64,000 nucleotides of DNA from the human T2T-CHM13v2.0 reference genome, Homo sapiens: assembly GCF_009914755.1 (NCBI RefSeq), contig NC_060925.1, one strand, 5' to 3'. The notes beneath the pieces are model-generated. The model did not search any database. It saw only the letters and a list, made by a program, of their open reading frames with translations, and was not told the DNA's origin. Every line of letters starts with the position of its first letter. The stretch's first letter is position 1. Shown here in pieces: positions 409 to 53,940 of the stretch. Position numbers and translations under genes: made by a program.

Positions 409-2668
<2,260 letters not shown>

Positions 2669-3059
2669 ACTTGGACAGGGTATAGCACCAGAGTGAATGG
2701 GAGGAATCTCAGAACAGCTTTGTTTAATACAACAAATATTTGAGTATCTACTCTGTCCCAGGCATGGCAGGAGTGTAGGGGACACACTTGTCCATTTTTA
2801 AGCTATGCCCAGTTTCCCTATATGGCTTTATCTGCCCCACTCTACATATCACAAAACTCCATGTCCTACCCCCTCCACCCAGGCCCCAGTCACAGAAAAC
2901 TAGGCCTGGAGTGGACCGCTGGCCAAACAACCAATAGTCAGGGCTGGGCCAATAAGATTCTCTCCCCAGAACAAAACTCAGACACTAAAGCTGAGAGATC
3001 TGTAGAGTTGAGCAGGTATCTTTGACCACCTTGTTTCTAAGGTGAGTAAATGGAGAAAA

Positions 3060-3620
3060 CTGGTCTTGAGAGAGAAACAGGGAGCTCAGATACACAGGGG
3101 AGCATCTATGAGGCCATTTGAAGGGAGAACTGGACAGAAAGACAGGCAGATGGGCAGATATGGATAGGTGGAGGCAGAGACAGCAGAGACAGACAGCAAA
3201 GAGACATGGACAGTGGCAGAGACAGCAAAAACAGAGACAGTGATGAAGACAGATGGAAGACGGTGACAGACGGTGACACAGACTAAAGGTAGACAGTGAC
3301 AGAGACAGGCAGGAAGACAGACAGATGGAGAAAGGAGAGGAGAGAGCGAGGGAATGAAGGGACATAGGGCATGGGGCAAAGGCCAGGCCCACAGAGTACA
3401 AAAGCATGAGCCGAGAGCAAGAGACCAATAATAGCAAGACTGAGAGAGTGAGCCGCGGGAGTGAAAGACCAGGAGAGGAGAGGACATGAGAGACTGAGGG
3501 GAGAGAATGAGACCAAAGGCCAGAGGGAGATACAAAAAGAGAAGAAGAAAACCAGGAAACCCGGAAATATGGTGTTACTAGGGACACGTGAGAGGTAGGG
3601 ATTGGGAAGCTGGAGGGGAG
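3060..3620 (+). repeat. purine-rich (GAGA/GACA) low-complexity tract
   Basis: Degenerate GAGACAGACAG/GGAGAG repeats; this explains the Ser/Leu/Cys-rich minus-strand ORFs. Confidence 0.8.
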
Positions 3621-4055
3621 GAGACATTTTAAATGAAGAGAAGATGAGGAAAGTGGCCACTCAATGAAGTCAGGCTGGAGCACTGTCCCGGAGTGTTCCA
3701 GCCAGGTGGGAAAGCATAAAGGAGAATTTCATCTGACAGGAGAGTGACTAGAATTTAGGAGCTCTTTTTCATTTAAAAAGTATCAGCTATCATTTCAAAA
3801 TAGCAAATGCAGTATACACACTTATTTCCTCATTCTTGAATGATGAAAAAAGATGGAAATGGAACATGAAAGTATTTTATCGAGCTTGTAGGTAACCAAC
3901 TCACTGAACTGAAAAGCAAGGGCAGGCACATACTGCCTGCTTCAGACAGAACACAGGTGTTTTTGTGTGTTGAAAGGAGTACCTAAGTGCACATCCCCTC
4001 ACCAAATTCACCCCCATGACTGAATGGTCTGCACAAAATGTTAAGAAACCACTTT

Positions 4056-4294
4056 TGGCTCATGCCTATAATCCCAGCACTTTGGGAGGCCGAGGCGGGC
4101 AGATCACAAGATCAGGAGATTAAGACCATCCTGGCCAACACAGTGAAACCCCGTCTCTACTAAAATATGAAAAATTAGCTGGGCGTGGTGGCGGGTGCCT
4201 GTAGTCCCAGCTGCTCAGAAGGCTAAGCCAGGGAAATCGCAAGCCGAGATCGCGCCACTGCACTCCAGCCTGGCGACAGAGCAAGACTCGGTCA

Positions 4295-4325
<31 letters not shown>
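4056..4325 (+). mobile_element. Alu with right-arm internal deletion and (GAAA)n(GA)n tail
   Basis: Alu sequence flanked by ACCACTT direct repeats. Confidence 0.85.
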
Positions 4326-4344
4326 CCACTTTATCCAAAGAACA

Positions 4345-5030
4345 AGTAATTGGCTCTCTCAGCCAGGGTCTTGGCAGCAAAATATGACATACTCAATGGG
4401 TAATTTGAGGAATGTTTAATAAAGGAACTATTTACAAAGGTGTGGGAGAGGTATAGGCAGTAGTGTGTTAGCAAGCTAACTCTGGGAAGAAAAGAGTCCC
4501 GATTTATAACACTGGCCAATTTCTAAGGTGTAAATACCTTGCACCTTGGTATAAGCAGTTTTCAAGCTTCCAAAGTGAAGTTCCTGAACCAAGAATAAGG
4601 AACAGATGCACATAATCAGATCTTAAGAGGTAGAACCAGCCAATTGCAGCCTGCTCCAGCACACCACTTAGGAAAACCCCAAGACATTGTGCAGTACCCC
4701 AGGGTTAGTAACAGCTGGAAGCTTTAAGTCTCTAACCCTACCCAAACCCAAAGAGAGCAAGCTAGAGACATAACCTTTAATCAGGGGAAAACAGCTAGGC
4801 TAAGATGACCTCGCAGGAAAGAACAACAAGAATAAGGACTACAACCTCTCTCTTGCTTCCCATTTCGTGTGGTGTACCCCACAAGCTGAAGGCAGCCAAA
4901 AGCCAGAAAGCAAGGGAGCCTACAGGTGTACTCTATACAGGTCAGCCTCCCAGCCTCCAACAAGAGACAGGCTGGTAAGGAAGAGTGTGGTTCTAGGGAG
5001 GCAAACAGAAACTATTCAGTACCTTGGCCC
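4345..5030. mobile_element. old LTR relic (ERVL/MaLR-like) interrupted by a hAT-type DNA element (~4458-4668)
   Basis: LTR-like TTTAATAAAGGAACTATTTACAAAGGTGTGGG; the insert is bounded by CAGTAGTGTGTTAG and CCAGCACACCACT inverted termini. Confidence 0.5.
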
Positions 5031-5746
5031 ACACAGAGGCTTAAAGCACAGCCTTAATGATGATGGCATAGAAGTCTAATATATGCAGTCCCCATAATGC
5101 TGAGAGGAAAAGAAAGCAAATAAAATAAAAACTTAAATATCAATTTAATGGAAATAAATATAGTCTTATCACTCAAATTAACTCCATTTTCTTTACATGG
5201 CCCTGAAGTTCTAGCCTAAAACACATTTTCCAACTTCACTCTTAATACAAATCAAAGTTAAGCCATAGATAATTATCAGTAAAATTTGCCAATACGGTAT
5301 CAACTTTCAAATGCTGACTCCAGCACTCTGAGAATGCCAGTGGAGGATGTCTACATCGTTGCTTTAAGGGAAGAAAAAGGAGATGGAAGGCCGTTTCTCT
5401 TCTTTATAGAAGCACCTGATGTGATTGCAGAACATTTAAAAGGCTATGGGAAATGATGGTTTTTAGTCACTCTCAATTAATAATTACATTAATAATTATA
5501 GGATTGACTCAGTTAATTTCAGAACATCAGTTTCATGCAACATAGGACTGATCAAAAGAGTTGTCATTTTACTTTACATAATGAACAATCAGTATGAGTA
5601 AGCAAATTGACTATTGGCATAACTCTGTAATACCTAATCAGGAGAATTTTAAGTAGTTTTGTCATTAACAGGAGTGTTTCACTGTTAGAGCAGAAACTGT
5701 GAGAATCAAGGGAGATGCTGAAGTTGGCCAGACTGTGATCTGTTCA

Positions 5747-7354: not shown

Positions 7355-8390
<1,036 letters not shown>

Positions 8391-11300
8391 AAAAGGGGAG
8401 AAGAATACAATGCAAAACTTATCAAAAGTTTTTTAAAGGTTTGCAGCTGGAAAAAACAATGGGCTAAGTCAGTTTTGTTCCACGGAGCAGACTGCAAATA
8501 AGTGGTAGCTATAAGAAGACAGATTTTGGTAAGACCAAATGACAGCAACAAAGGGAGGAGGAAGAGGCAGAGAGAAGAGAAGAAGAGAAAAACAAGGAAA
8601 GGCGGCAAAAGAAACACAATTATACTTGCTTACAAATAGAATATTCCTCACGAGAAAGTGAGGGTCCCATCACTGAAGCTAGTCAAACACAGGCTGGAGA
8701 ACCATCAGGAGGGAGGTTCTGGAGAGGATTCAGTGGAACAGTGGAAAATGAATTGTATAGCATGTCCCCCCAGAACTAAGATTCTGTGATTCTATTTCTC
8801 TTTCTCAACAGTTACAGGTGTGGCCACTTAGAGAAACAGAAAAAATAAAAAACAAGAAAAGTATGGTCCAAATATCCTAAGTGTATAAAGCAGATACTCT
8901 AGTAGATTTTTAAATGTTTGTTTACAAGCCATTAACTAATCAAAAATAAAGGGAAGGGAAGAATTGAAGAGCTTCAAGGTAATGCTCAAGGAACCACTCC
9001 CAAATGAGGTCCAACCATATATGCAGAGCTGGCATCGGAAACAATGAAGCCAAGGATTCAGTTGACCCACAGTGTTCCTCAAACACATCTATTCTTTTAA
9101 GATAGATTACTAAAATAAATGGGTTGCATAAAAGTCATGGAATTTGGAAGCTTTATTTCCTTAACATTAAATGACAAGGCTTCAGCTTCTCAATCCCCCA
9201 TCTAACATCAGCCAACAGATTTAACTTTTTGACACTTTCAGAGAAAGATAGCTGAGCCTTGGCTGAAGATTGTCTTAGAATATTTTACAAGAAAAAACAA
9301 GCTCTGCTGAGCTGGTAATAATCCAGATTATCATCCATTCCCCCTTGTAGAGGCACAATGGATTTTAACCAGTTTTCTGTTTTATAAATATTACCATGGC
9401 TCAAAACACCCATGAGGAGACACAACATTACTCGTGGTTCTCATCCTGTTTGCTAACTAATTATATCAACAACCTGAACCAACTTAACACTATACAAAAA
9501 CACAGCTGATTTAGCAATCTGTAAATTATACATGTACATAAATCTGTACCAAAATGTGCTGTGTTTCACTCCTGCTAATGTGCATGGATTCTTACTGGCA
9601 CCTACAATTGTTTGATATAGGTTCCCGAACACTAAAACATATGTTCTGCCCAGAATGGGACCATTTAGAGTAATATTTTTGTAGTTTCCTGGCACCAAGG
9701 TCTGCCAGCCTTTCTAAGACAGATCTCCTATTTGCTTCAGCAAACATTCTGACAACAAGTGCCTGCAGATTTAAGCAACTATCAAAAAATATTCTGTAAC
9801 AACAGTTTCCAACCATGAATATAAAGAGAAACAGGCTGGTTTTGCCTATGTGGCAACAAAGCCAGTAGGATTTAAAATGATCACTGACATGACCATAAGC
9901 AAAATCAAATAAAATATGGAGTATTAATTATTTCTGCTGCCTACTTACGGCAATTTAAAGAACAGATAATTATCAAATCTTTCCTTAAATGGGATTCAAA
10001 ATGTACCAAAGAAAGTTAAAAGTCGGTTTTAGTACCAGCAAGACCAGTAAACACCTTAGAAATGTTTTTTAAATACAGTGACAGGCCTAAACAGTCGCAG
10101 CCGGTCAACACTGTAAAATAGGGGCAAGAACCTTGGACCAAGATTCACTAGAATGTAATTTACTAATCACAAGGAGGGTTTCTTGTTTACCACTGTATCC
10201 TCAGTGTTCCATAAATACATTCAATAAATCTTTGTTGAATGAATAAACCAAAAACAACTGCTGGCTAGTCCCTGATCTGTCTCTAATTGCCTTTTCCTAA
10301 TTCTGCCTCTTACGAATTGTAGGTAAATCACTTAACCTGAGGATTCTTAGGTGAGTTTTAGTTTAAGGATTTTAGTTCCTTAAACTCTAAAATGGAGAGA
10401 CTGCACCTCCTCTACTAGCTTATGAGGATCAAAGGTGATACTCTGTGAAAAGTGACTTGGTACTTTATAATGGGGCACACAGATGTTAAGTGCCCATTAT
10501 CCCCGCCTTTGCCTTCAGCTAAACCACTGACAAAGGTGAACAGACTGCATTTCCTTGAAATATAATTAGCCTTTCCTTTGCCCTATTATTCTGTTGAGAT
10601 GTGGTAGTGTGGCTGTTAGCCAAGATGGATGTTGTTCTTGTTGTTATAACATTTTATTTAATCTCCACTGGGAAATTATGCTTCTTGAGAGAATATAATG
10701 GTAACATGAGGAAAGGGTTTTTGCATGGTGTACCATAAAGAATCTGACATTGGACTCAAATGGTTTGGGGCCTCATTAGTTCTGCCCTTAAATATTTGAG
10801 GAAAGCCTCTTGCATCAATTTCCTTATTTATACAATGATGGGGAAGGAGAGGCAGACTAGATAATATTTAAGGTCTGTCTCTTCCCACAGCTCTATGATA
10901 TTCCGGGCATCAGATATTCAAATAACCCAAAATGAAGTCAGTACTATTATTCATTATCATATGAGAAGTTTTTAAAGGATGATAAAAATAGTTCCACAGA
11001 CTAAGTCATAAAAGCTGGAGAAATTATAATGCTGAGAGAAGGATATATGATAGATGTCCTCTAAGGAATACCAGCCTCAGGCATTGTTTGCTCTGCCACT
11101 TTGAATAAGCCACTTAATATTCCTAGGACTCAGTTTTCTGATCTGTAAAAGAGGAACATTAATACTGCACAGGACCACTGGGAGAAAATATCTAATAAAA
11201 TGATCATAAAATATTGCTATTCAAAGGTAAAATGCTATTTTAATACCGTAATGTCCAAAAAAGGGCTCATGGATTTTAGAATGAGACAATCAATATCTTT

Positions 11301-11970
11301 AAATAGACTTTTTCCACCACAGTAAAATAATATAATGCATGCAGATATTGTGATATTTCTAGGAGTTCACATTTTTTCTTCCATTTGTGTTCAGGAAATA
11401 TTATAAAAGGGATCACCTTTTAAACATTGAGTCCCATATTTCAAGATGAGAACCATTTATTCTGAAATAATAATTTTAAAAATTCATCCAACTCTCCCAA
11501 GATGCTTCATTTTTTTTGATGCTATTCATTTGATTGGTTAATTGAAATCAACCTGCTGAAACTGGTGTTGAAATGACAATGCCCATCCTAAAAATATTCC
11601 CAGTGACTTATTCTATTCACATTCTATGATTACAGAGGGAAAGTGGCTCTAATAAGATCAACTAAAATAGACAGTATTCTGCCTTCACAGCTCCAAGATT
11701 CTTAAGGTTCCCTTAAAACCCAAGGCATCTTGTGACTTTTACATGTAAGTTTCTCTTCCTGCTCCCTCCACTCAAAAACATACACAGTATACATTAGGTA
11801 CTGGGTTTCCCCTCTAACTTACAGGGCACTGCCTCTTTACTGAAAAATAGAATTGTCATTGATATTTATGAGAAAGTTGGTGTCACTGACAATGGGATAA
11901 CCAAATTTGCAAGATTGTCTCCATACCCCTTAATAGTCCAATAAAAATAGCAATAATAGCACAGTAACTC

Positions 11971-12204
11971 TTATTTTATTTAAAAATAAATGAACAACTC
12001 CAGCTTTTTTATGGCAAAACAGTTCATTGTGGCTGTTCACATAGCAATTATCATCCCCTTGCATCCCCAGGTAATGACTGTGACCTTGACCTAAAAGCCA
12101 CCTTAGTTTGAATAAGGAAGACCTTGAAAGGAAAGGTGACTGACCAGAAACACTCTTAAGAGGCACACAATAAAGAAATGATCATTTCTAAGAAAGTACT
12201 TAAA
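11971..12204 (+). repeat. left arm of a ~235-bp inverted repeat flanking the KCNH1 promoter and exon 1
   Basis: Hand alignment to the reverse complement of 15910-16156 gives 14 substitutions, a T6 vs T15 run and a 4-bp TTAG indel. Confidence 0.95.
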
Positions 12205-13546
12205 TAATACATGATTATTTGCTATGCTAGTTGATGTGTTTCATTATAAGATAAACTTAAATCACTGTTTAATTAAAGAGTGTTTATTAGTAGCATAAGT
12301 CACTTTTCATGCCCTTCCCCTGAATCCCTAACTAAATCCAAACAGAAGCTCATCATTTTACACAGAAGCTCCTTAGACTCTGAAATCGTGATATTTACAC
12401 ATTATTAAAACCCATTTCCTAAGTTAGCTCCTCATGTCTCCCTGGTAGAAGAATGTCATCTGTTTCTGGAAGGGGTGGGGTGGGGGCTCTAGGAGTCTGC
12501 AAAGAGAATCTTATGCTTGGCTATCTTTCAATATAGCCATTTGATGAACTCGTGCGCTGCGCCTTCCAACTGCCAGGACTCCTAGTCGCTCTGCAAGTGC
12601 TTAGTTGGGGTCTCTCCTCTGTTAAGTCCGAAAGGCGTTTGGAATTCTTCCTTTCCATCCCCGCTCCTAGGACTCTCGCCTCTCAAGGCTTCATGCTACC
12701 GTCGATCTTAATGCCACAAGGAAACAGATGAGTGCTGATTGTCAGTTTATTGGGTAATGGATCTATTTATAGGTTTGGTGAGATTGGGAATTTATAGGTG
12801 AGCAACACTTAAGGGTGGCATAAAACCGTTGTGGGTTTGGAAGAGGGGAAATATAACAGGTTTGTACCTGTGACCATTTAGTTCGCTCTGCACCTGTGCC
12901 CTCCACTTCCCACCTGACGCCAGGAAAACCATCTGCCCCTCACTTCGAAGGTGAGCCTTAACTTCACCTAGAAAGTGGTGGGTGGGTGAAGGGGTGGAAT
13001 CAGGCCGCCGAGAGCACGTCCCGACACCTCGGACTTTTCAGTTGCAGGGATGGAAGGTGGAGGCAGCCGGATCCTCCCATTCTGAGGCAGCGGGGACCTG
13101 GAGTTGCCCGTCTCTACTGCTGGGTCTCCCTGGGGAGAGGCGGCGCCTCTGGGAGCAGCCCGGGAGCCCCAGAGCCTTCGCGGAAGGGTGGGCAGTGCCG
13201 ATGGGGCGCGCGCTGCCGCTCCGGCTGCAGCCAGCTTTCCATCACTTTTCCCAGTACTTTGCTCAGCAGCTGTCACGCATCCTTGGAGATAAGACCGAGA
13301 GGGCGCTAGAAAGGCCCAAAAGGCGTCCCCAGAAGAGCTCTCCTGTTAGGATGGGGACCCATCAGACCCCGCCCCGCCCTGCCCACCTTTCTCTGCCTCG
13401 GGGAGGCTGCCCTGGGTGCCCGCGCCGCGGCTCCTTAGCAGAGCTCGCGGGTTCTGCTGCATCTGCTGGCTCCGAGCGGCGAGAGGTTCTGCAATAAAGG
13501 CACGGATAAAACGCCCGGGTAATCGAAATCCGAATGCACCTCTTAC

Positions 13547-13625
13547 CATTGGACCGCCGAACAATATTCTCCAGAAACGTGTTTTGAGGGGCCACTAGTC
13601 CCCTCCTGCCCCCAGCCATGGTCAT
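13547..13625 (-). CDS. KCNH1: KCNH1 (EAG1/Kv10.1 potassium channel) coding exon 1, PAS-cap N-terminus
   Basis: Minus-strand translation [26 protein letters not shown] matches the KCNH1 N-terminus. It is 79 nt (26 codons + 1 nt, phase 1), followed by the canonical donor AATG|GTAAGA at 13546-13541. Confidence 0.97.
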
Positions 13626-13669
13626 CCTCCCAGCAGCTCGGGGTCCGGCGGGCGTCCTGGCGCGGCTTC

Positions 13670-13729
13670 TTACGACAGCAGGAAACTGGCCTCGGGGCCC
13701 GCACGCAGTCCCGGCTCGAAGCGCCCCAT
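13670..13729 (-). promoter_or_regulatory. upstream ORF (19 aa, [19 protein letters not shown]) in the presumed KCNH1 5' UTR
   Basis: ATG at 13729-13727 and TAA at 13672-13670; out of frame with the main ATG and ending 44 nt before it. Confidence 0.6.
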
Positions 13730-15909
13730 GCGCCCGGCGGGGATCCGCAGGCAGGGCTGGCGGCTCCCTCTGGCTGCTACCCTCGCGCCCTCTTCGCGCC
13801 TCCCTCCCTGCGGCCCGCCTCGCAGTGCACTCGCGCCGGCCTCGGCTAGCGGCAGCCGCCTCCGGGTGGGCGGAGGGAGCAGCGGCGCCTGGGCCGGCGG
13901 CGCCCCCTACCGGGCTCGTGCCCCACCGCCGGCCTGCGGGAGACCAAGCTGGGGGGCTCCCGCAGAGGCAGGGAAGTGGCGGGCGGCCGTGGACCAAGGC
14001 TGGGACGGCAGCGCCACCCTCTGGGTTCAGCCGGGAAATGTGTTCAGGATGTGCCATGGGCTGGGTGGAGAGGAGGGCATTGTGAGCAGCTTTCAGGGCG
14101 GATTCACCCCCAACAAGTCTTAGGGGAGCGTGCTGATGTAACTCTCTTCCTTTGCTCTGTTTCAGGCCGGGGCCCCCGGGACCTGTGAGGCTCTGGGAAC
14201 ACCTTCTTGCCTTCCTGTAAGGTTAGCCTGACTAGTGAAAGTTGCCCCACCTTGATTCTAGGCCAGTGTTTGAGCAGTAATTAATGAAGTCGTATTGCAA
14301 TAGTGCAGATTTAGAGTGACTGGCAGATTCAGCTTCAGAAGAGTTGTCTTGGGTTGTTTTTACCGTAGACACAAATGCAGGCTCCTGATGTTTGGTATGA
14401 TCAGTATCAAACTGCCTGACAAACATCAAAGGGGTGGACTTGTCTCTAAGGGCGAATGCTCAGGAGAGGGGCAGCATTAATTAAGCAACCGTGGCTTTGG
14501 CTTGAAGGGTAGTCTGTAGTGCAGAGGATACAGTTAGTTTTTACAGCTGACCCCTGGTATACGGAAGAACCACATACACCCAAGGTTTCTGGACAGGGGC
14601 TAAGACAACGGTCGTTTGTTCACTTATTTTGGGGGATTTCGACCCACACATAGTCTGTACCTGCCTTTTTACTATGTATCCCCAGTCGGTGCGGTGGGAG
14701 ACTAAGCCTATGTCCCACAGGAGAAATGAATGGAGAGTTTACTAGTTTCAGACTGAGTCAACAGTCAACACAAAAATGTAAGAGAAAAAAAAACTAACCC
14801 TGAAAATTAATTGTCTGGGTTAGCCATCCTGACATATCCTAATGTATTGCAAAGACATCCTGTCTCAGTTAATTAATTTCAAAAACAGAAGAACTAATTC
14901 TTGCCCAGAAATCTCTCAGAGTTGCTGTGAAGATCAAGCAAGAATTATGTATGGGGACAGCACCTTAAATTGTAAAGTGCTGTGCCAAGGTCAGACGTCA
15001 TTATTGGAGTGACTAAATAAATTGGGCCATTACGAATATCACCCTTTATCTCGTCTTGTGTAGAGACAAAGTAAACAGATTGCTGTTAGCAGAGAGTTGG
15101 ATAAGACTGTCATAGGATTTGAAATGCAAGTAATGATACACTTTTTCCTTAAGATAGCCTTCTACCCATCGCCTGTTACCTAGTCTAGAACAGTGATTTC
15201 TTAAACCCTAGCTCCGTCTAGTGGTTCTTTGTTCTATTACAAATGAGATAACACTGGTTGAAGAGAACTTGATTCTGAAATGTATTTGGTGCTGAGCTGA
15301 GCCAGTTTGGTGCCTATCCACTTCATTTGAATAAGTTCATTTAAATAAGGTTTTTAAAGTTGTGTTATCGCACAAACATGCCAAGGGAAGATTTTTCATG
15401 ACAATATTAAAAACCCATCAAGAAACCTCATAATCCTGCTTGTGAAAGGAAGATAAAGAAAATAATGTGGAGGGGAAAACTATCATAGAGAGTTAATAAA
15501 ATTTCTAAGGTTTTAATGAGCTCTCATGTTCTGTGGCTTAGATAAAAAAGGAAACAGATGATATTAGTTTGAGATCAGAGATGTTAAAGCCTTGGTGGGC
15601 AACCTGATGAGAAAAAGAAATAAGATGTCTTCCATTTTAAATGTACTACTGAAATGGATCTCAACATGGACTCTGTGTGTGTGTGTATGTGTGTGTGTAT
15701 TGGCACCTTTTTGAATACTACAATTTTTGGTGGCACACTTGAAGAAATTAAAAGACCTAAAACAAAATGGTGCTACTACAAAGTGGTTCTTTTTTTTAAA
15801 GTTTTAAACCTCCAGATTGTGTGCCATAACACGATCACATTATTTTACGTCTTTTTGCTTAAATAAGACTGGATGCTTATAAAAGCACTGTTATACTGTG
15901 TTATGGCAC

Positions 15910-16156
15910 TTTAAGTACTTGCTTAGAAATGATCATTTCTTCATTGTGTGCTTCTTAAGAGTGTTTCTGGTCAGTTACCTTTCCTTTCAAGGTCTTCCTT
16001 ATTCAAACTAACTAAGGTGGCTTTTAGGTCAAGATCACAGTCATTACCTGGGGATGCAAGAGGAAGATAATTACTACGTGAACAGCTACAATGAACTGTC
16101 TTGCCATAAAAAAAAAAAAAAAGCTGGAGGTGTTCATGGATTTTTAAATAAAATAA
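15910..16156 (-). repeat. right arm of the ~235-bp inverted repeat
   Basis: Reverse complement of 11971-12204, e.g. CTTAAGAGTGTTTCTGGTCAG and CAGTCATTACCTGGGGATGCAAG. Confidence 0.95.
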
Positions 16157-18037
16157 ATATTTAAGAATTAAATTGCTAAAAAGTCAGCAGTCTTTCATCA
16201 CAATGTGAGTGTCTCATGGTGTCTGTGGAGGTACATCCAGTTTTTCCCCCATTCCCTTGGTTCACTCACAACACATCTGACTGCAGGAATAAAATCATGT
16301 TCTGCCCTGTCCACAGCCACATTCTCAATATTCCAGTAAACACTCCCTCTTTCTTGGTGCTAGTTGACGGGATACTGTGCTTCTTACCTTTTACTTGCCA
16401 CCTTTTGTTCCCTCCTTGACATTCAGTTCCAGCACCTGCTCAACTTAAAGTTCTGTCTGAGATCTACCTCTGTAATATGGGAATCTCAGTTAGAGTAAAC
16501 TTTAATCTTACAGATTTGTCAAAACTTGGTAACAGATTTCTAAAGGATTCACAATATACCAATGTACCATGGCAAACCAATTGAGAACGCTTATATTTTT
16601 GCATAACAGACAAAGCCACTCCTTCATTTAAAGGGACAACTTTAAATAACTGTGACCAGAGTTCCAATTCAACTGCCTCTATCCTTCCATGCAGAAAATG
16701 TAGCCCATTTTCTGCAGGGATACAGAGTTCAGATACAGAGTCTGAAATAAATTCTAAAATGTGAGTCTACTATTTCTAGGCTTCTTTCCTCCTGTATCCC
16801 TCAGCATTTTGTTTACCCCTTAGCTATAAGATGTGTTTATGTCTGTATCACACCGTAGATTGTGAGCTCCTTGAAACAAAGACACACTATAACAATTTTT
16901 GTTCTTATAAATGCTATTAAGCTACACTGTAATTAGTGAGTTCACAAAAGTAATAGATAGTGATGAAGGCATAATGCTATAGGGAGAATATGGAGATGGT
17001 GATCTGCAGATTGGCTGGGAAAAGAGTCCAGGAGATGACAGAAAAATCTCTCCCAACAACAACAACAAGTCTATCAAATGAAGAGGATGACAATGCCACA
17101 CATCAGAAGGGGCAAATGTTATCATATAAAGACAGGAACTTCATTTTTCCTTCCATTAAGACCACATGGTGTGGGTGACAGATTTTAGAAAGCCAGGAAC
17201 CTCTCTAACATAGGAAAGTTGCCTGTGAGTCCTAGGTCTGCGAGCTGGAAGGGGCAGGCCATGGATGCATCGTCATTAGCAACTTAAGCGGAGGAGAAAT
17301 TGAACATAGAGGCGACTTCACTACTCAGCCACCAGGAGTGAAATATCTAAATATCTAAAAGTGGAGGAATTTGCAGCATGAGAAATTTCAGCTTCTATAG
17401 CCCAATGACTGACTGACTTATTATATGTGATTTCTGTTAACAAAACTTCTATTTGAATAATCTTATAGGAAGAATGTTGGGCAGACTATATCCATTGAAA
17501 AAAAAAAAGATTCCCTGCTATAGATGTATTTCCCTAGTGTTGGGAGAATGGACAGAATCTGCTTCAAAGGAAATACTAGTTCCTGAATCTAATTGACTGG
17601 GGAAAAGAATGCACTGATGTGGGTCTACACTCACCCATGGTTAACCCAATAGATAGTGTGAAATGTTTGTAGAATTGAATTATATCCTTCCAAGTGCCCT
17701 AAGCTATTCTTCTTTCTCATTTCCTCTAAACAAAAGAGAAAAGGATCTTTCATCACACCCTTCCCTCAGTGGGAAATAATTAAAAGTCATTTACAACAGT
17801 CTCATTTTATTATGACAAACATTTGCATCGTGTCTAGTATATAGCAGACAGGGATAGGTTCTAAGGATTAAAAGATGGTTATGATTGGCACCTGCCCTCA
17901 AGAAATTCAACAAATATTTAATGAATGTGTATGTTCTTCGTCATTTCTTTCAACTGCTTTCCTGTCTCCAATGTGCCCTCTAAATCTTCCTTTCTTTTTA
18001 AATAATCTATAGTTCAACTTGACCTCTTCGCTTAAGA

Positions 18038-18339
18038 TTTTTTTTTTTTTTTTTTTGAGACAGGGTCTTGATCTGTTGCCTAGGCTGGACTGCAGTAGCA
18101 AAATCATGGCTCACTGCAGGCTCAACTTCCTGATCTCAAGTGATCCTCCCACCTCAGCCTCCTAAGTAGCTATAGGGGCAGGCCACCATACCTAGCTAAT
18201 TTTTTTTTTTTCTTGTAGAGACAGGGTCTCCCTATGTTTCCCAGGCTGGTCTCGAACTCCTGGGCCTGAGCCCAAGTAATCCTCCCACCTCAGCCTCCCT
18301 AAATTCTGGGATTAAATGCATGAGCCACCACACCCAGCT
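18038..18339 (-). mobile_element. AluJ-like element
   Basis: Antisense Alu. Confidence 0.88.
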
Positions 18340-19011
18340 AAGACTTTCTTTCCTCCTCTTAACTGAGATCTGGCTTTCCCCTAAAGTCTCAGAGTCCCGT
18401 CGGTCCCACTTTTTTGGAATATATTTATTCTGTCACAGTCCATGTACCTAGAAGCCAGAAGTTGAAGTGAGAAATTGTCTAGTTCCTCATTGCCATATTT
18501 AAACCACTACTCTTCTCCATTCATGTAAAATTTCTCCTACTTTGAAGTTCATGAACAATGTCAATATCACTATACTTCAATTCTTAAAACAAACTTGGGG
18601 AAAATTGTATTCAGTTATGAAAAGGCTGAGTTGCCTGCAGGACATTTCAGAGAAATATCAAGTAGGTAGTTGGATATTCACATCTAGAACCCAAGAGAAA
18701 CATCTGGGTGGTGCTCAAAATTGGAAATCATCAGTTTATAGCTTTCAAAGGAGACTGAGAAGGAGCAGTTTAGAAGTGGAGGGAACCGAGAGAAGTGGTT
18801 TTATAGAAGCCCAGAGGGGAAAGGTCTTTAAATGAAAAGAAAGAAGAAAAGCATCATTTATTGTACACTGTAGAGATAAACACTGGAAAATGTCCATTAG
18901 CTCTAATGATTAGTTGGCCATTTGATACTTTAGTGGAAACATTTTCAATGGAATAGTAGAGAGGGAGCCAAAGTGCAAGGGATTTAAAGATTAAATAGAA
19001 ACATACAATTA

Positions 19012-51799: not shown

Positions 51800-53940
<2,141 letters not shown>

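What the first reader, a model, noticed from the sequence alone, without database searches (positions are those of the whole stretch)
11971..16156. Non-transposon inverted repeat brackets the KCNH1 promoter and exon 1: candidate invertible on/off cassette
Seen: 11971-12204 and 15910-16156 are reverse complements, with 14 substitutions over 234 bp (~94% identity) plus a T6/T15 difference and a TTAG duplication. They enclose 3.7 kb holding the CpG island, 5' UTR, start codon and first donor, and I cannot match them to a repeat family. Established: inverted repeats can mediate recurrent inversion and be homogenised by gene conversion, as at the FLNA-EMD locus. Inference: recombination between the arms would flip promoter and exon 1 away from exon 2 and silence a channel gene that is normally largely brain-restricted and ectopically expressed in tumours. 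Conversion could also keep a much older pair similar. The arms are short for efficient NAHR, so any inversion may be rare.
Basis: partly seen in the sequence, partly recalled or inferred. Interest (0 to 1): 0.85.

Follow-up and report, generated by a model that had tools for sequence, protein, structure and literature searches.

The report
Small inverted duplication around KCNH1 promoter
Two roughly 240-base copies of one unique sequence sit in opposite orientation on either side of the KCNH1 promoter and first exon, but they look like an old, drifting DNA-repair scar and not a switch that flips the gene on and off.

Summary
Arms 11971-12204 and 15910-16156 are reverse complements with 14 substitutions in 234 aligned bases, a T6/T15 difference and a TTAG duplication. 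They enclose 3705 bp holding the CpG island, the KCNH1 start codon and the exon 1 donor. The pair is not a dispersed repeat. Each arm finds only itself and its partner in the whole T2T genome, while 3 of 3 control repeats from the same window gave 2558-5226 candidates.

The switch reading has no support. The longest perfect match between the arms is 35 bp, well below published homology thresholds. The differences are spaced as random drift predicts, with no conversion tract. No paper I found reports an inversion here.

Divergence (K2P 0.063) suggests an origin about 26-31 Myr ago (interval 14-49) if there was no conversion. The right arm sits in what looks like a composite repair junction. The likeliest story is therefore one templated insertion that copied part of intron 1 to a site 2.1 kb upstream of the start site. 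I could not examine orthologous genomes or population assemblies, so polarity, age and the absence of inverted alleles remain untested.

The parts
11971..12204 (+). Left arm of the inverted duplication. It lies in KCNH1 intron 1 and forms the 3'-terminal part of the last exon of lncRNA KCNH1-IT1. It is the probable donor copy.
   Evidence: Searches give the alignment and the sharp borders. Searches show it is unique in the genome apart from its partner. One search gives the KCNH1-IT1 exon at 11959-12706. One search places AATAAA on the minus strand at 11980-11975, 16 nt before the annotated 3' end.
15910..16156 (-). Right arm, inverted, 2082 bp upstream of the RefSeq KCNH1 start site. It carries the T15 run and the TTAG duplication. 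It is the probable derived copy.
   Evidence: One search gives the distances.
12205..15909 (.). The 3705-bp spacer, which has no homology between its two ends.
13547..13828 (-). KCNH1 exon 1: 5' UTR, ATG at 13625-13623, coding part 13547-13625, GT donor at 13546-13545.
   Evidence: The supplied RefSeq annotation. One search translates the coding part to [26 protein letters not shown] and shows the intron starting GTAAGA. One search confirms the ATG and donor.
13100..13999 (.). CpG-rich block (CpG island) over exon 1 and the promoter.
   Evidence: One search used 200-bp windows and flagged those with GC of at least 0.5 and CpG observed/expected of at least 0.6. One search shows GC rising to 0.79.
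11959..13054 (-). lncRNA KCNH1-IT1 (exons 11959-12706 and 12868-13054). Its last 246 nt run through the left arm and 12 nt beyond it.
   Evidence: RefSeq annotation.
15777..15878 (+). A roughly 100-bp segment whose only other genomic copy is intergenic on chrX. It lies 31 bp from the inner edge of the right arm and may belong to the same composite junction.
   Evidence: (89 of 103 identical).
15898..15909 (-). A 12-nt perfect inverted copy of 15821-15832 that abuts the inner border of the right arm. It resembles snap-back filler at a repair junction.
   Evidence: In one search, 0 of 5000 dinucleotide shuffles had such a pair abutting the border, and 161 of 5000 had such a pair anywhere.
16157..16165 (+). 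The outer junction of the right arm: 3 nt (ATA) followed by TTTAAG, which repeats the first six bases of the arm (15910-15915).
   Evidence: A 6-mer in AT-rich DNA is weak evidence.

Best explanation
This is a fixed, two-copy, local inverted duplication of about 240 bp of unique non-coding DNA. It most likely arose in a single repair event. In that event a broken end about 2.1 kb upstream of the KCNH1 start site was patched with a copy of a stretch of KCNH1 intron 1, by templated insertion or template switching during end joining or replication restart. The copy landed in inverted orientation. The two copies have since drifted apart neutrally for some tens of millions of years. The pair brackets the promoter and exon 1 by accident of position. 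It has no recombinase and no homology tract long enough for efficient homologous exchange, so it does not act as a switch. Shown here: the pair exists, it is unique in the genome, its borders are sharp, its differences are evenly spaced, and its identity tracts are short. Inferred: the mechanism, the polarity (left arm as donor, right arm as copy) and the age.
For: 1. Only two copies exist. Each arm finds 2 of 2 first-look candidates, itself and its partner, in the 3.1-Gb genome at E up to 10. In contrast, 3 of 3 masked repeats of 126-244 bp from the same window gave 5226, 3531 and 2558 candidates at 74-92% identity. The arms are not masked.
2. The homology ends abruptly on both sides.
3. The size of 234-247 bp lies within the 73-414 bp range (median 191) of experimentally recovered templated insertions, and the donor stays intact as in those events.
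4. The hallmarks of an L1-made copy are missing: no A-tail and no TTTT/A target (with criteria).
5. The right-arm side looks like a composite junction. A 12-nt perfect inverted copy of nearby sequence abuts the inner border (0 of 5000 shuffles abut it). A 3-nt filler followed by a repeated TTTAAG sits at the outer border. A second orphan segment, with one other copy on chrX, lies 31 bp away. The borders of the left arm show nothing comparable.
6. The substitutions look neutral: 9 transitions to 5 transversions, evenly spaced, longest clean run 53 bp against a simulated mean of 49.8 (P = 0.35).
7. K2P distance is 0.063, which gives 26-31 Myr at 1.0-1.2e-9 per site per year.
9. The published core promoter (-630/+114) lies about 1.4-1.5 kb from either arm and is active without them.
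Against: The polarity rests on junction features found after the fact; the TTTAAG repeat is only 6 nt in AT-rich DNA, and its first copy lies inside the homology. The 12-nt inverted copy could be chance, since 161 of 5000 shuffles had such a pair somewhere. The chrX pair is nominally more diverged (10 of 99 against 14 of 234, Fisher P = 0.24), so it may come from a separate event. Published templated insertions are described as coming from distant loci, whereas this donor is 3.7 kb away in cis. No empty site was seen because no orthologous or population sequence was available. Conversion older than the last few percent of divergence cannot be excluded. Exchanges between alpha-globin repeats about 5 kb apart have used matches shorter than 50 bp, so a rare exchange here is possible.
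Confidence: 0.6

Rival explanations
1. One reading: the arms are kept alike by gene conversion and mediate recurrent inversion of the promoter and exon 1, so the cassette works as a heritable or somatic on/off switch for KCNH1.
For: The geometry is right: inverted arms enclose the promoter, the ATG and the donor. The arms are only 3.7 kb apart, and proximity lowers the homology requirement, as with alpha-globin exchanges that used less than 50 bp. Overall identity of 94% is above the 92% seen for nearly all pathogenic conversions.
Against: The longest perfect tract is 35 bp, against thresholds of 134-232 bp in cultured cells and 300-500 bp in human meiosis. The differences show no conversion tract. 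Recurrence of human inversions scales with repeat length, and 23 of 32 recurrent autosomal or X-linked inversions have flanking repeats of 10 kbp or more. No site-specific recombinase system for such switches is known in mammals (general knowledge). Three searches found no report of a KCNH1 inversion.
Confidence: 0.03
2. The pair has no function, but it is a low-rate substrate for accidental exchange. That exchange would produce rare KCNH1-null inversion alleles in the germline or in tumours, in the manner of the F8 intron 1 inversion.
For: The layout matches F8 Inv1: one copy in intron 1 and an inverted copy upstream of the gene, with exchange preventing full-length mRNA. Short-tract exchanges do occur between close repeats.
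Against: The F8 repeats are 1041 bp long, about four times longer than these arms. Here the identity is interrupted every 35 bp or less. No such allele has been reported.
Confidence: 0.1
3. The right arm is an L1-made retrocopy (class 1 templated insertion) of the 3' end of KCNH1-IT1 or of KCNH1 pre-mRNA.
For: The left arm is the 3' end of an annotated transcript. The homology ends 4 nt past that transcript's AATAAA and 12 nt short of its annotated end. Templated insertions are enriched for transcribed sequence. A 6-nt TTTAAG repeat flanks the right arm.
Against: The last 12 transcribed nt are missing from the copy, and no A-tract follows it, only ATA and then unrelated AT-rich sequence. The target is not TTTT/A. 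The first TTTAAG is part of the homology and so is not a true target-site duplication. The class 1 criteria are therefore not met.
Confidence: 0.05
4. The duplication is functional. One version: a regulatory module was doubled on both sides of the promoter. Another: the 3' end of KCNH1-IT1 pairs with the upstream copy (RNA:DNA or RNA:RNA) to tune KCNH1.
For: The KCNH1-IT1 RNA has the same sequence as the plus strand of the right arm and is therefore 94% complementary to its minus strand. Both arms keep a perfect 16-nt palindrome. Both arms lie in a 10-kb repeat-free island around the promoter.
Against: The arms overlap no annotated functional element; the three silencer fragments in the region lie elsewhere. 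There is no RNA family match and no structure signal. The substitution pattern looks neutral. The core promoter is active without the arms.
Confidence: 0.05
5. The arms are two copies of a dispersed transposable element, or the terminal inverted repeats of one DNA transposon.
For: Inverted terminal copies with AT-rich ends look superficially like this.
Against: There are 2 genomic copies, against thousands for 3 of 3 control repeats. The arms are not masked. The outer flanks share no target duplication. The interior is the promoter and exon 1 of a channel gene, not transposon sequence. Two members of an old family would not be 94% alike, and a young family would have many close copies.
Confidence: 0.02
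6. The duplication is the by-product of an ancient inversion of the spacer made through staggered breaks.
For: By recall, staggered-break inversions leave inverted duplications at their ends.
Against: Exon 1 now has the same orientation as the rest of KCNH1, and the RefSeq mRNA and lncRNA map collinearly. This model therefore needs two successive inversions of an essential promoter and exon.
Confidence: 0.03

Closest known systems
F8 intron 1 inversion repeats (int1h-1 / int1h-2)
   Same: One copy lies in intron 1 and an inverted copy lies upstream of the gene. Exchange turns the promoter and exon 1 away from the rest of the gene and abolishes full-length mRNA (passage read in PMC7098248).
   Different: The int1h repeats are 1041 bp long and 140 kb apart, and by recall almost identical. 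The KCNH1 arms are 234-247 bp, 94% identical, 3.7 kb apart, with no identity tract above 35 bp, and no inverted allele is known.
FLNA-EMD inverted repeats and other inversion polymorphisms driven by non-allelic homologous recombination (NAHR)
   Same: Inverted low-copy repeats flank a gene-bearing segment.
   Different: Recurrent human inversions mostly have flanking repeats of 10 kbp or more, and repeat length is the main driver of recurrence (preprint 10.1101/2021.12.20.472354, passages). The figures for FLNA-EMD (repeats of about 11 kb, over 99% identical) are recalled and come from no call. The KCNH1 arms are about 40-50 times shorter.
Class 2 templated-sequence insertions (double-strand-break repair patches)
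   Same: The size range is the same (73-414 bp, median 191). The donor is left intact. There is no A-tail and no L1 target site. The junctions carry filler or microhomology (PMC5110952, parts 1-2 of the text read).
   Different: Published cases are described as templated from distant loci and are polymorphic. Here the donor lies 3.7 kb away in cis, the insertion is old, and whether it is fixed in humans could not be checked. No empty site was seen.
Snap-back and templated-in-trans synthesis during polymerase theta / SD-MMEJ end joining
   Same: A short inverted copy of adjacent sequence sits exactly at a junction. This is the kind of scar those papers describe (PMC4912351, PMC2943611 and PMC5728401; search listing and abstract starts only).
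   Different: Those scars are usually a few to a few tens of nucleotides long. A 240-bp copy requires a longer templated synthesis step.
Bacterial invertible promoter switches (fim and hin type)
   Same: Inverted repeats bracket a promoter.
   Different: By recall, those switches need a dedicated site-specific recombinase and use very short repeats. Nothing of that kind is annotated here, and none is known in mammals.

Membership tests
NAHR-competent inverted low-copy repeat pair (F8 int1h, FLNA-EMD type) | Two copies in inverted orientation on the same chromosome | tested here: met
NAHR-competent inverted low-copy repeat pair (F8 int1h, FLNA-EMD type) | An uninterrupted identity tract at or above the minimal efficient processing segment (134-232 bp in cultured cells, 300-500 bp in human meiosis) | tested here: not met
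   The longest perfect run is 35 bp. Thresholds come from passages in PMC2583991 and PMC3966225. The same text reports exceptions below 50 bp.
NAHR-competent inverted low-copy repeat pair (F8 int1h, FLNA-EMD type) | Repeat length in the kilobase range | tested here: not met
   The arms are 234 and 247 bp, against 1041 bp for int1h and 10 kbp or more for most recurrent inversions.
NAHR-competent inverted low-copy repeat pair (F8 int1h, FLNA-EMD type) | Both orientations observed among haplotypes or cells | not testable with these tools
   Only one human assembly was available. Reads, pangenomes and paper supplements were closed. Searches found no report.
Gene-conversion-homogenised repeat pair | Clustered differences, or long identical tracts beyond the random expectation | tested here: not met
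   longest clean run 53 bp against a simulated mean of 49.8 (P = 0.35); spacing CV 0.87 against 0.95 (P = 0.62).
Gene-conversion-homogenised repeat pair | Arms group by species rather than by position in a tree of orthologues | not testable with these tools
   No non-human eukaryotic genomes were reachable.
Dispersed transposable element, or terminal inverted repeats of a DNA transposon | Many related copies across the genome | tested here: not met
   2 candidates for each arm, against 5226, 3531 and 2558 for 3 of 3 control repeats.
Dispersed transposable element, or terminal inverted repeats of a DNA transposon | A target-site duplication flanking the unit | tested here: not met
   The outer flanks of the 4.2-kb unit share no direct repeat.
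Class 1 templated insertion / L1-mediated retrocopy | An A-tail of 10-40 nt lying 10-20 nt after AATAAA | tested here: not met
   The homology ends 4 nt after AATAAA and is followed by ATA and unrelated sequence. Criteria.
Class 1 templated insertion / L1-mediated retrocopy | A target-site duplication of 5 bp or more at a TTTT/A site | tested here: inconclusive
   TTTAAG recurs at 15910-15915 and 16160-16165, but the first copy lies inside the homology and the site is not TTTT/A.
Class 2 templated insertion (double-strand-break repair patch) | Donor intact; insert of about 70-400 bp; no A-tail and no L1 site | tested here: met
   criteria.
Class 2 templated insertion (double-strand-break repair patch) | Junctions with microhomology, filler or locally templated bases | tested here: inconclusive
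   A 12-nt inverted copy abuts the inner border, and ATA filler followed by TTTAAG sits at the outer border. These features were found after the fact.
Class 2 templated insertion (double-strand-break repair patch) | An empty (pre-insertion) site exists in other haplotypes or in outgroups | not testable with these tools
   No other assemblies or species were available.
Programmed invertible promoter switch | A dedicated site-specific recombinase acting on the repeats | not tested
   I ran no ORF scan of the spacer. The only coding sequence annotated there is KCNH1 exon 1. That mammals lack such a system is general knowledge.

The most novel reading that the evidence does not exclude
The arms do exchange at a low rate because they are so close together. 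If so, rare germline or somatic alleles exist in which the KCNH1 promoter and exon 1 are flipped. That would make the locus a small autosomal counterpart of the F8 intron 1 inversion, a recurrent and cryptic null allele of KCNH1 that exome and short-read pipelines would miss. A further variant of this reading: the 3' end of KCNH1-IT1 is targeted to the upstream copy by its 94% complementarity.
Probability: 0.07. Interest if true: 0.55.

Novelty: new member of a known kind. Interest (0 to 1): 0.18.

Why it matters
As it stands, this matters little. It is one more small, old, locally templated duplication, notable only because it frames the promoter of a medically relevant channel gene. It has two practical uses. 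First, it is a clean example of an inverted repeat that is not a transposon and is probably below the length needed for homologous exchange, which makes it a useful negative control for scans that flag 'invertible cassettes' in mammalian DNA. Second, if long-read cohorts ever showed the flipped allele, it would be a cryptic null allele of KCNH1 and would lower the known size limit for repeat-mediated inversion in humans.

Tried and rejected
- **Transposon origin: rejected.** Whole-genome searches with each arm and with each arm plus about 500 bp of flank found only the partner. Three positive controls showed that the search detects families at 74-92% identity.
- **Longer, decayed homology beyond the arms: rejected.** A word-7 blastn found none.
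- **Structured RNA: nothing found.** There were 0 Rfam matches at E up to 1 in 11500-16600. Folding z-scores for the left arm were -0.62 and +0.28.
- **L1-made retrocopy: rejected.** The junctions do not fit (against the criteria).
- **Source of the 19 nt between the chrX-like segment and the 12-nt inverted copy (15879-15897): not found.** It has no other match in the window at up to 3 mismatches.
- **Further similarity between the chrX locus and the window: none.** Only the 100-bp segment and unrelated dispersed repeats matched.
- **Bacterial promoter/terminator scan:** this was a poor choice for a human locus and tells nothing.
- **Literature:** three searches for KCNH1 with inverted repeat or inversion terms returned circRNA reviews, a gibbon synteny paper that mentions KCNH1 only in passing, and clinical papers. 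None reports an inversion at this promoter. A search for KCNH1-IT1 listed 5 expression or methylation papers that I did not open.
- **Not possible with these tools:** RepeatMasker or Dfam, orthologous mammalian sequence, pangenome haplotypes and sequencing reads. Supplements were closed, and the inversion tables of the large surveys (for example the preprint read) could bear on whether an inversion was ever called here.
- **Not attempted:** a sequence-only covariance model search of the genome. Two copies that are 94% alike must share a recent origin whatever their remote ancestry.


Full report
**Observation.** The repeat finder gives three collinear inverted blocks. A gapped local alignment joins them into one pair, left arm 11971-12204 against right arm 16156-15910. 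The pair has 14 substitutions in 234 aligned positions (9 transitions, 5 transversions), a 9-nt difference in a T run (T6 against T15) and a TTAG duplication in the right arm (sequences read). A word-7 blastn of 9000-19000 against the whole window shows that the similarity stops sharply at those borders and that the window holds no third copy. The spacer is 3705 bp. It holds KCNH1 exon 1 (13547-13828, minus strand), the ATG at 13625-13623 with a reading frame that begins [26 protein letters not shown], the GT donor at 13546-13545, and a CpG-rich block at about 13100-13999 with GC up to 0.79-0.80.

**Not a dispersed repeat.** Each arm was searched against the whole T2T genome at E up to 10. Each produced exactly two first-look candidates, itself and its partner. 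Queries that added about 500 bp of flank gave the same answer for the left side. To check that the search would have seen a repeat family, I ran three masked repeats of 126-244 bp from the same window. All 3 returned thousands of candidates (5226, 3531 and 2558), with scored matches at 74-92% identity. Neither arm overlaps a masked repeat of 100 bases or more, and 7995-18028 is a 10-kb stretch with no such repeat. The outer flanks of the 4.2-kb unit share no target-site duplication, and its interior is a gene promoter and exon. Two members of an old family would not be 94% alike, and a young family would have many close copies. The search leaves matches in closed regions unshown and skips very common words, so this is strong evidence but not absolute.

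**Can the pair act as a switch?** Three lines of evidence say this is unlikely.
- *Homology.* The longest uninterrupted identity is 35 bp. Passages in PMC2583991 state that cutting uninterrupted homology from 232 to 134 bp lowered intrachromosomal recombination 20-fold in cultured mouse cells, and that the threshold in human meiosis is about 300-500 bp. PMC3966225 gives more than 200 bp for mouse and 337-456 bp for humans. In a survey of 41 human genomes, flanking repeat length was the main driver of inversion recurrence, and 23 of 32 recurrent autosomal or X-linked inversions had repeats of 10 kbp or more (preprint 10.1101/2021.12.20.472354, passages).
- *Conversion.* If conversion kept an old pair alike, the differences should cluster between long clean tracts. 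They do not. The longest substitution-free run is 53 bp against a simulated mean of 49.8 (P = 0.35). The spacing CV is 0.87 against 0.95 (P = 0.62). The 10:4 split between the two halves is not significant (P = 0.18).
- *Literature.* Three searches found no report of an inversion at this promoter.

One point runs against a flat dismissal. The same review notes exchanges between alpha-globin repeats, about 5 kb apart, that used matches shorter than 50 bp, and it attributes this to proximity. The KCNH1 arms are 3.7 kb apart and 94% alike, above the 92% seen for nearly all pathogenic conversions. A rare accidental exchange therefore remains possible.

**Age.** The raw difference is 0.060 (exact 95% interval 0.033-0.098) and the K2P distance is 0.063. 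At 1.0-1.2e-9 substitutions per site per year, the two copies have been diverging for about 26-31 Myr (interval about 14-49); at 0.5e-9 the figure would be about 63 Myr. The rates are general knowledge, not tool results. Without conversion, the duplication would date to the anthropoid or catarrhine stem. This is a prediction only, because no non-human genome could be reached.

**Origin and polarity.** The two sides of the pair are not equivalent.
- The flanks of the left arm are unique in the genome and show no junction signature. Only 10-11-nt chance-level matches appear, and none lies at a border.
- On the right side, the 12 nt just inside the arm border (15898-15909) are a perfect inverted copy of 15821-15832. 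In 5000 dinucleotide shuffles of the 310-nt inner flank, 161 had such a pair somewhere and 0 had one abutting the border.
- At the outer border, the right arm is followed by ATA and then TTTAAG, which repeats the first six bases of the arm.
- Thirty-one bp from the arm lies a roughly 100-bp segment (15777-15878) whose only other copy in the genome is intergenic on chrX, about 30 kb from TEX13C. The two copies match at 89 of 103 positions. The chrX flanks are unique, and I saw no A-tail or target duplication on reading them.

Short inverted filler at a junction, small non-templated additions and chained patches from other loci are the marks described for polymerase theta / SD-MMEJ end joining (PMC4912351, PMC2943611 and PMC5728401; abstract starts only). 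They are also the marks of class 2 templated-sequence insertions (PMC5110952, parts 1-2 read). Experimental inserts in that work measured 73-414 bp (median 191) and left their donors intact.

The class 1 criteria for an L1-made copy are not met. No A-tail follows the copy. The copy stops 4 nt after AATAAA and lacks the last 12 nt of KCNH1-IT1. The target is not TTTT/A.

My best reading is therefore that the right arm is the derived copy, patched into a break 2082 bp upstream of the RefSeq start site, and that intron 1 was the donor. I put about 0.6 on this polarity and mechanism. The junction features were found after the fact. The chrX pair is nominally more diverged (10 of 99 against 14 of 234, Fisher P = 0.24), so it may be a separate event.

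**Function.**
- There is no Rfam match at E up to 1.
- Neither strand of the left arm folds better than shuffled controls.
- No annotated functional element overlaps the arms; the three silencer fragments lie at 11618-11818, 13045-13235 and 13730-14009.
- The published core promoter (-630/+114 around a 5'RACE start site 152 nt upstream of the ATG; PMC3105031, passages) maps to about 13663-14407. That is roughly 1.4-1.5 kb from either arm, and it drives reporters without them.

One real consequence of the left arm is visible. It supplies the AATAAA (minus strand, 11980-11975) that sits 16 nt before the annotated 3' end of KCNH1-IT1. Because the arms are inverted, the KCNH1-IT1 RNA reads like the plus strand of the right arm and so is 94% complementary to its minus strand. 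I regard any regulatory use of that complementarity as speculation.

**Comparison with known systems.** There a 1041-bp repeat in intron 1 recombines with an inverted extragenic copy 140 kb away and prevents full-length mRNA (PMC7098248, passage). The layout is the same as at KCNH1. The repeat is about four times longer and, by recall, nearly identical. The pair fails the tested defining features of a recombination-competent repeat (tract length and repeat length). It fails those of a transposon and of an L1 retrocopy. It meets the testable features of a class 2 templated insertion. The differences from published class 2 cases are that the donor lies nearby in cis and that no empty site could be examined.

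**Verdict.** The feature is real, unique and correctly described, and I found no earlier report of it. It is best explained as an old, neutral, locally templated inverted duplication. The 'invertible on/off cassette' reading is not supported by anything I could test, although inverted alleles and orthologues were out of reach. Interest is low (0.18). The boldest reading still open is a low-rate, F8-Inv1-like cryptic null allele of KCNH1, at a probability of about 0.07.

Noticed in passing
window 15777-15878; L005 2001-2100 (G000:C23:123667963-123668062): A roughly 100-bp unique segment 31 bp from the right arm has exactly one other copy in the genome. That copy is intergenic on chrX, about 30 kb from TEX13C, and matches at 89 of 103 positions. 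I saw no A-tail or target duplication at the chrX copy. Which copy is the donor is unknown.
   Followed up: partly
window 15821-15832 and 15898-15909: A 12-nt perfect inverted copy whose second member abuts the inner border of the right arm. In shuffles of the flank, 0 of 5000 had such a pair abutting the border and 161 of 5000 had one anywhere.
   Followed up: yes
window 7995-18028: About 10 kb around KCNH1 exon 1 has no masked repeat of 100 bases or more, while 30% of the whole window is masked.
   Followed up: no
window 12174-12189 and 15925-15940: A perfect 16-nt palindrome is kept unchanged in both arms. Its significance is unknown.
   Followed up: no
window 11975-11980 (minus strand) and 16147-16152 (plus strand): Each arm carries an AATAAA near its outer end. 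The left one lies 16 nt before the annotated 3' end of KCNH1-IT1 at 11959. The right one would face any upstream antisense transcript running out of the CpG island.
   Followed up: partly
window 15672-15702: An imperfect (TG)n microsatellite. It accounts for the short 30-38-nt genome hits to query positions 262-309.
   Followed up: no
window 14363-14394 and 14420-14451: An imperfect 32-nt inverted repeat (72% complementary, 25 nt apart) just upstream of the core promoter. It is probably chance.
   Followed up: no
window 53078-53557: The annotated processed pseudogene RPS25P2, which is unrelated to the finding.
   Followed up: no
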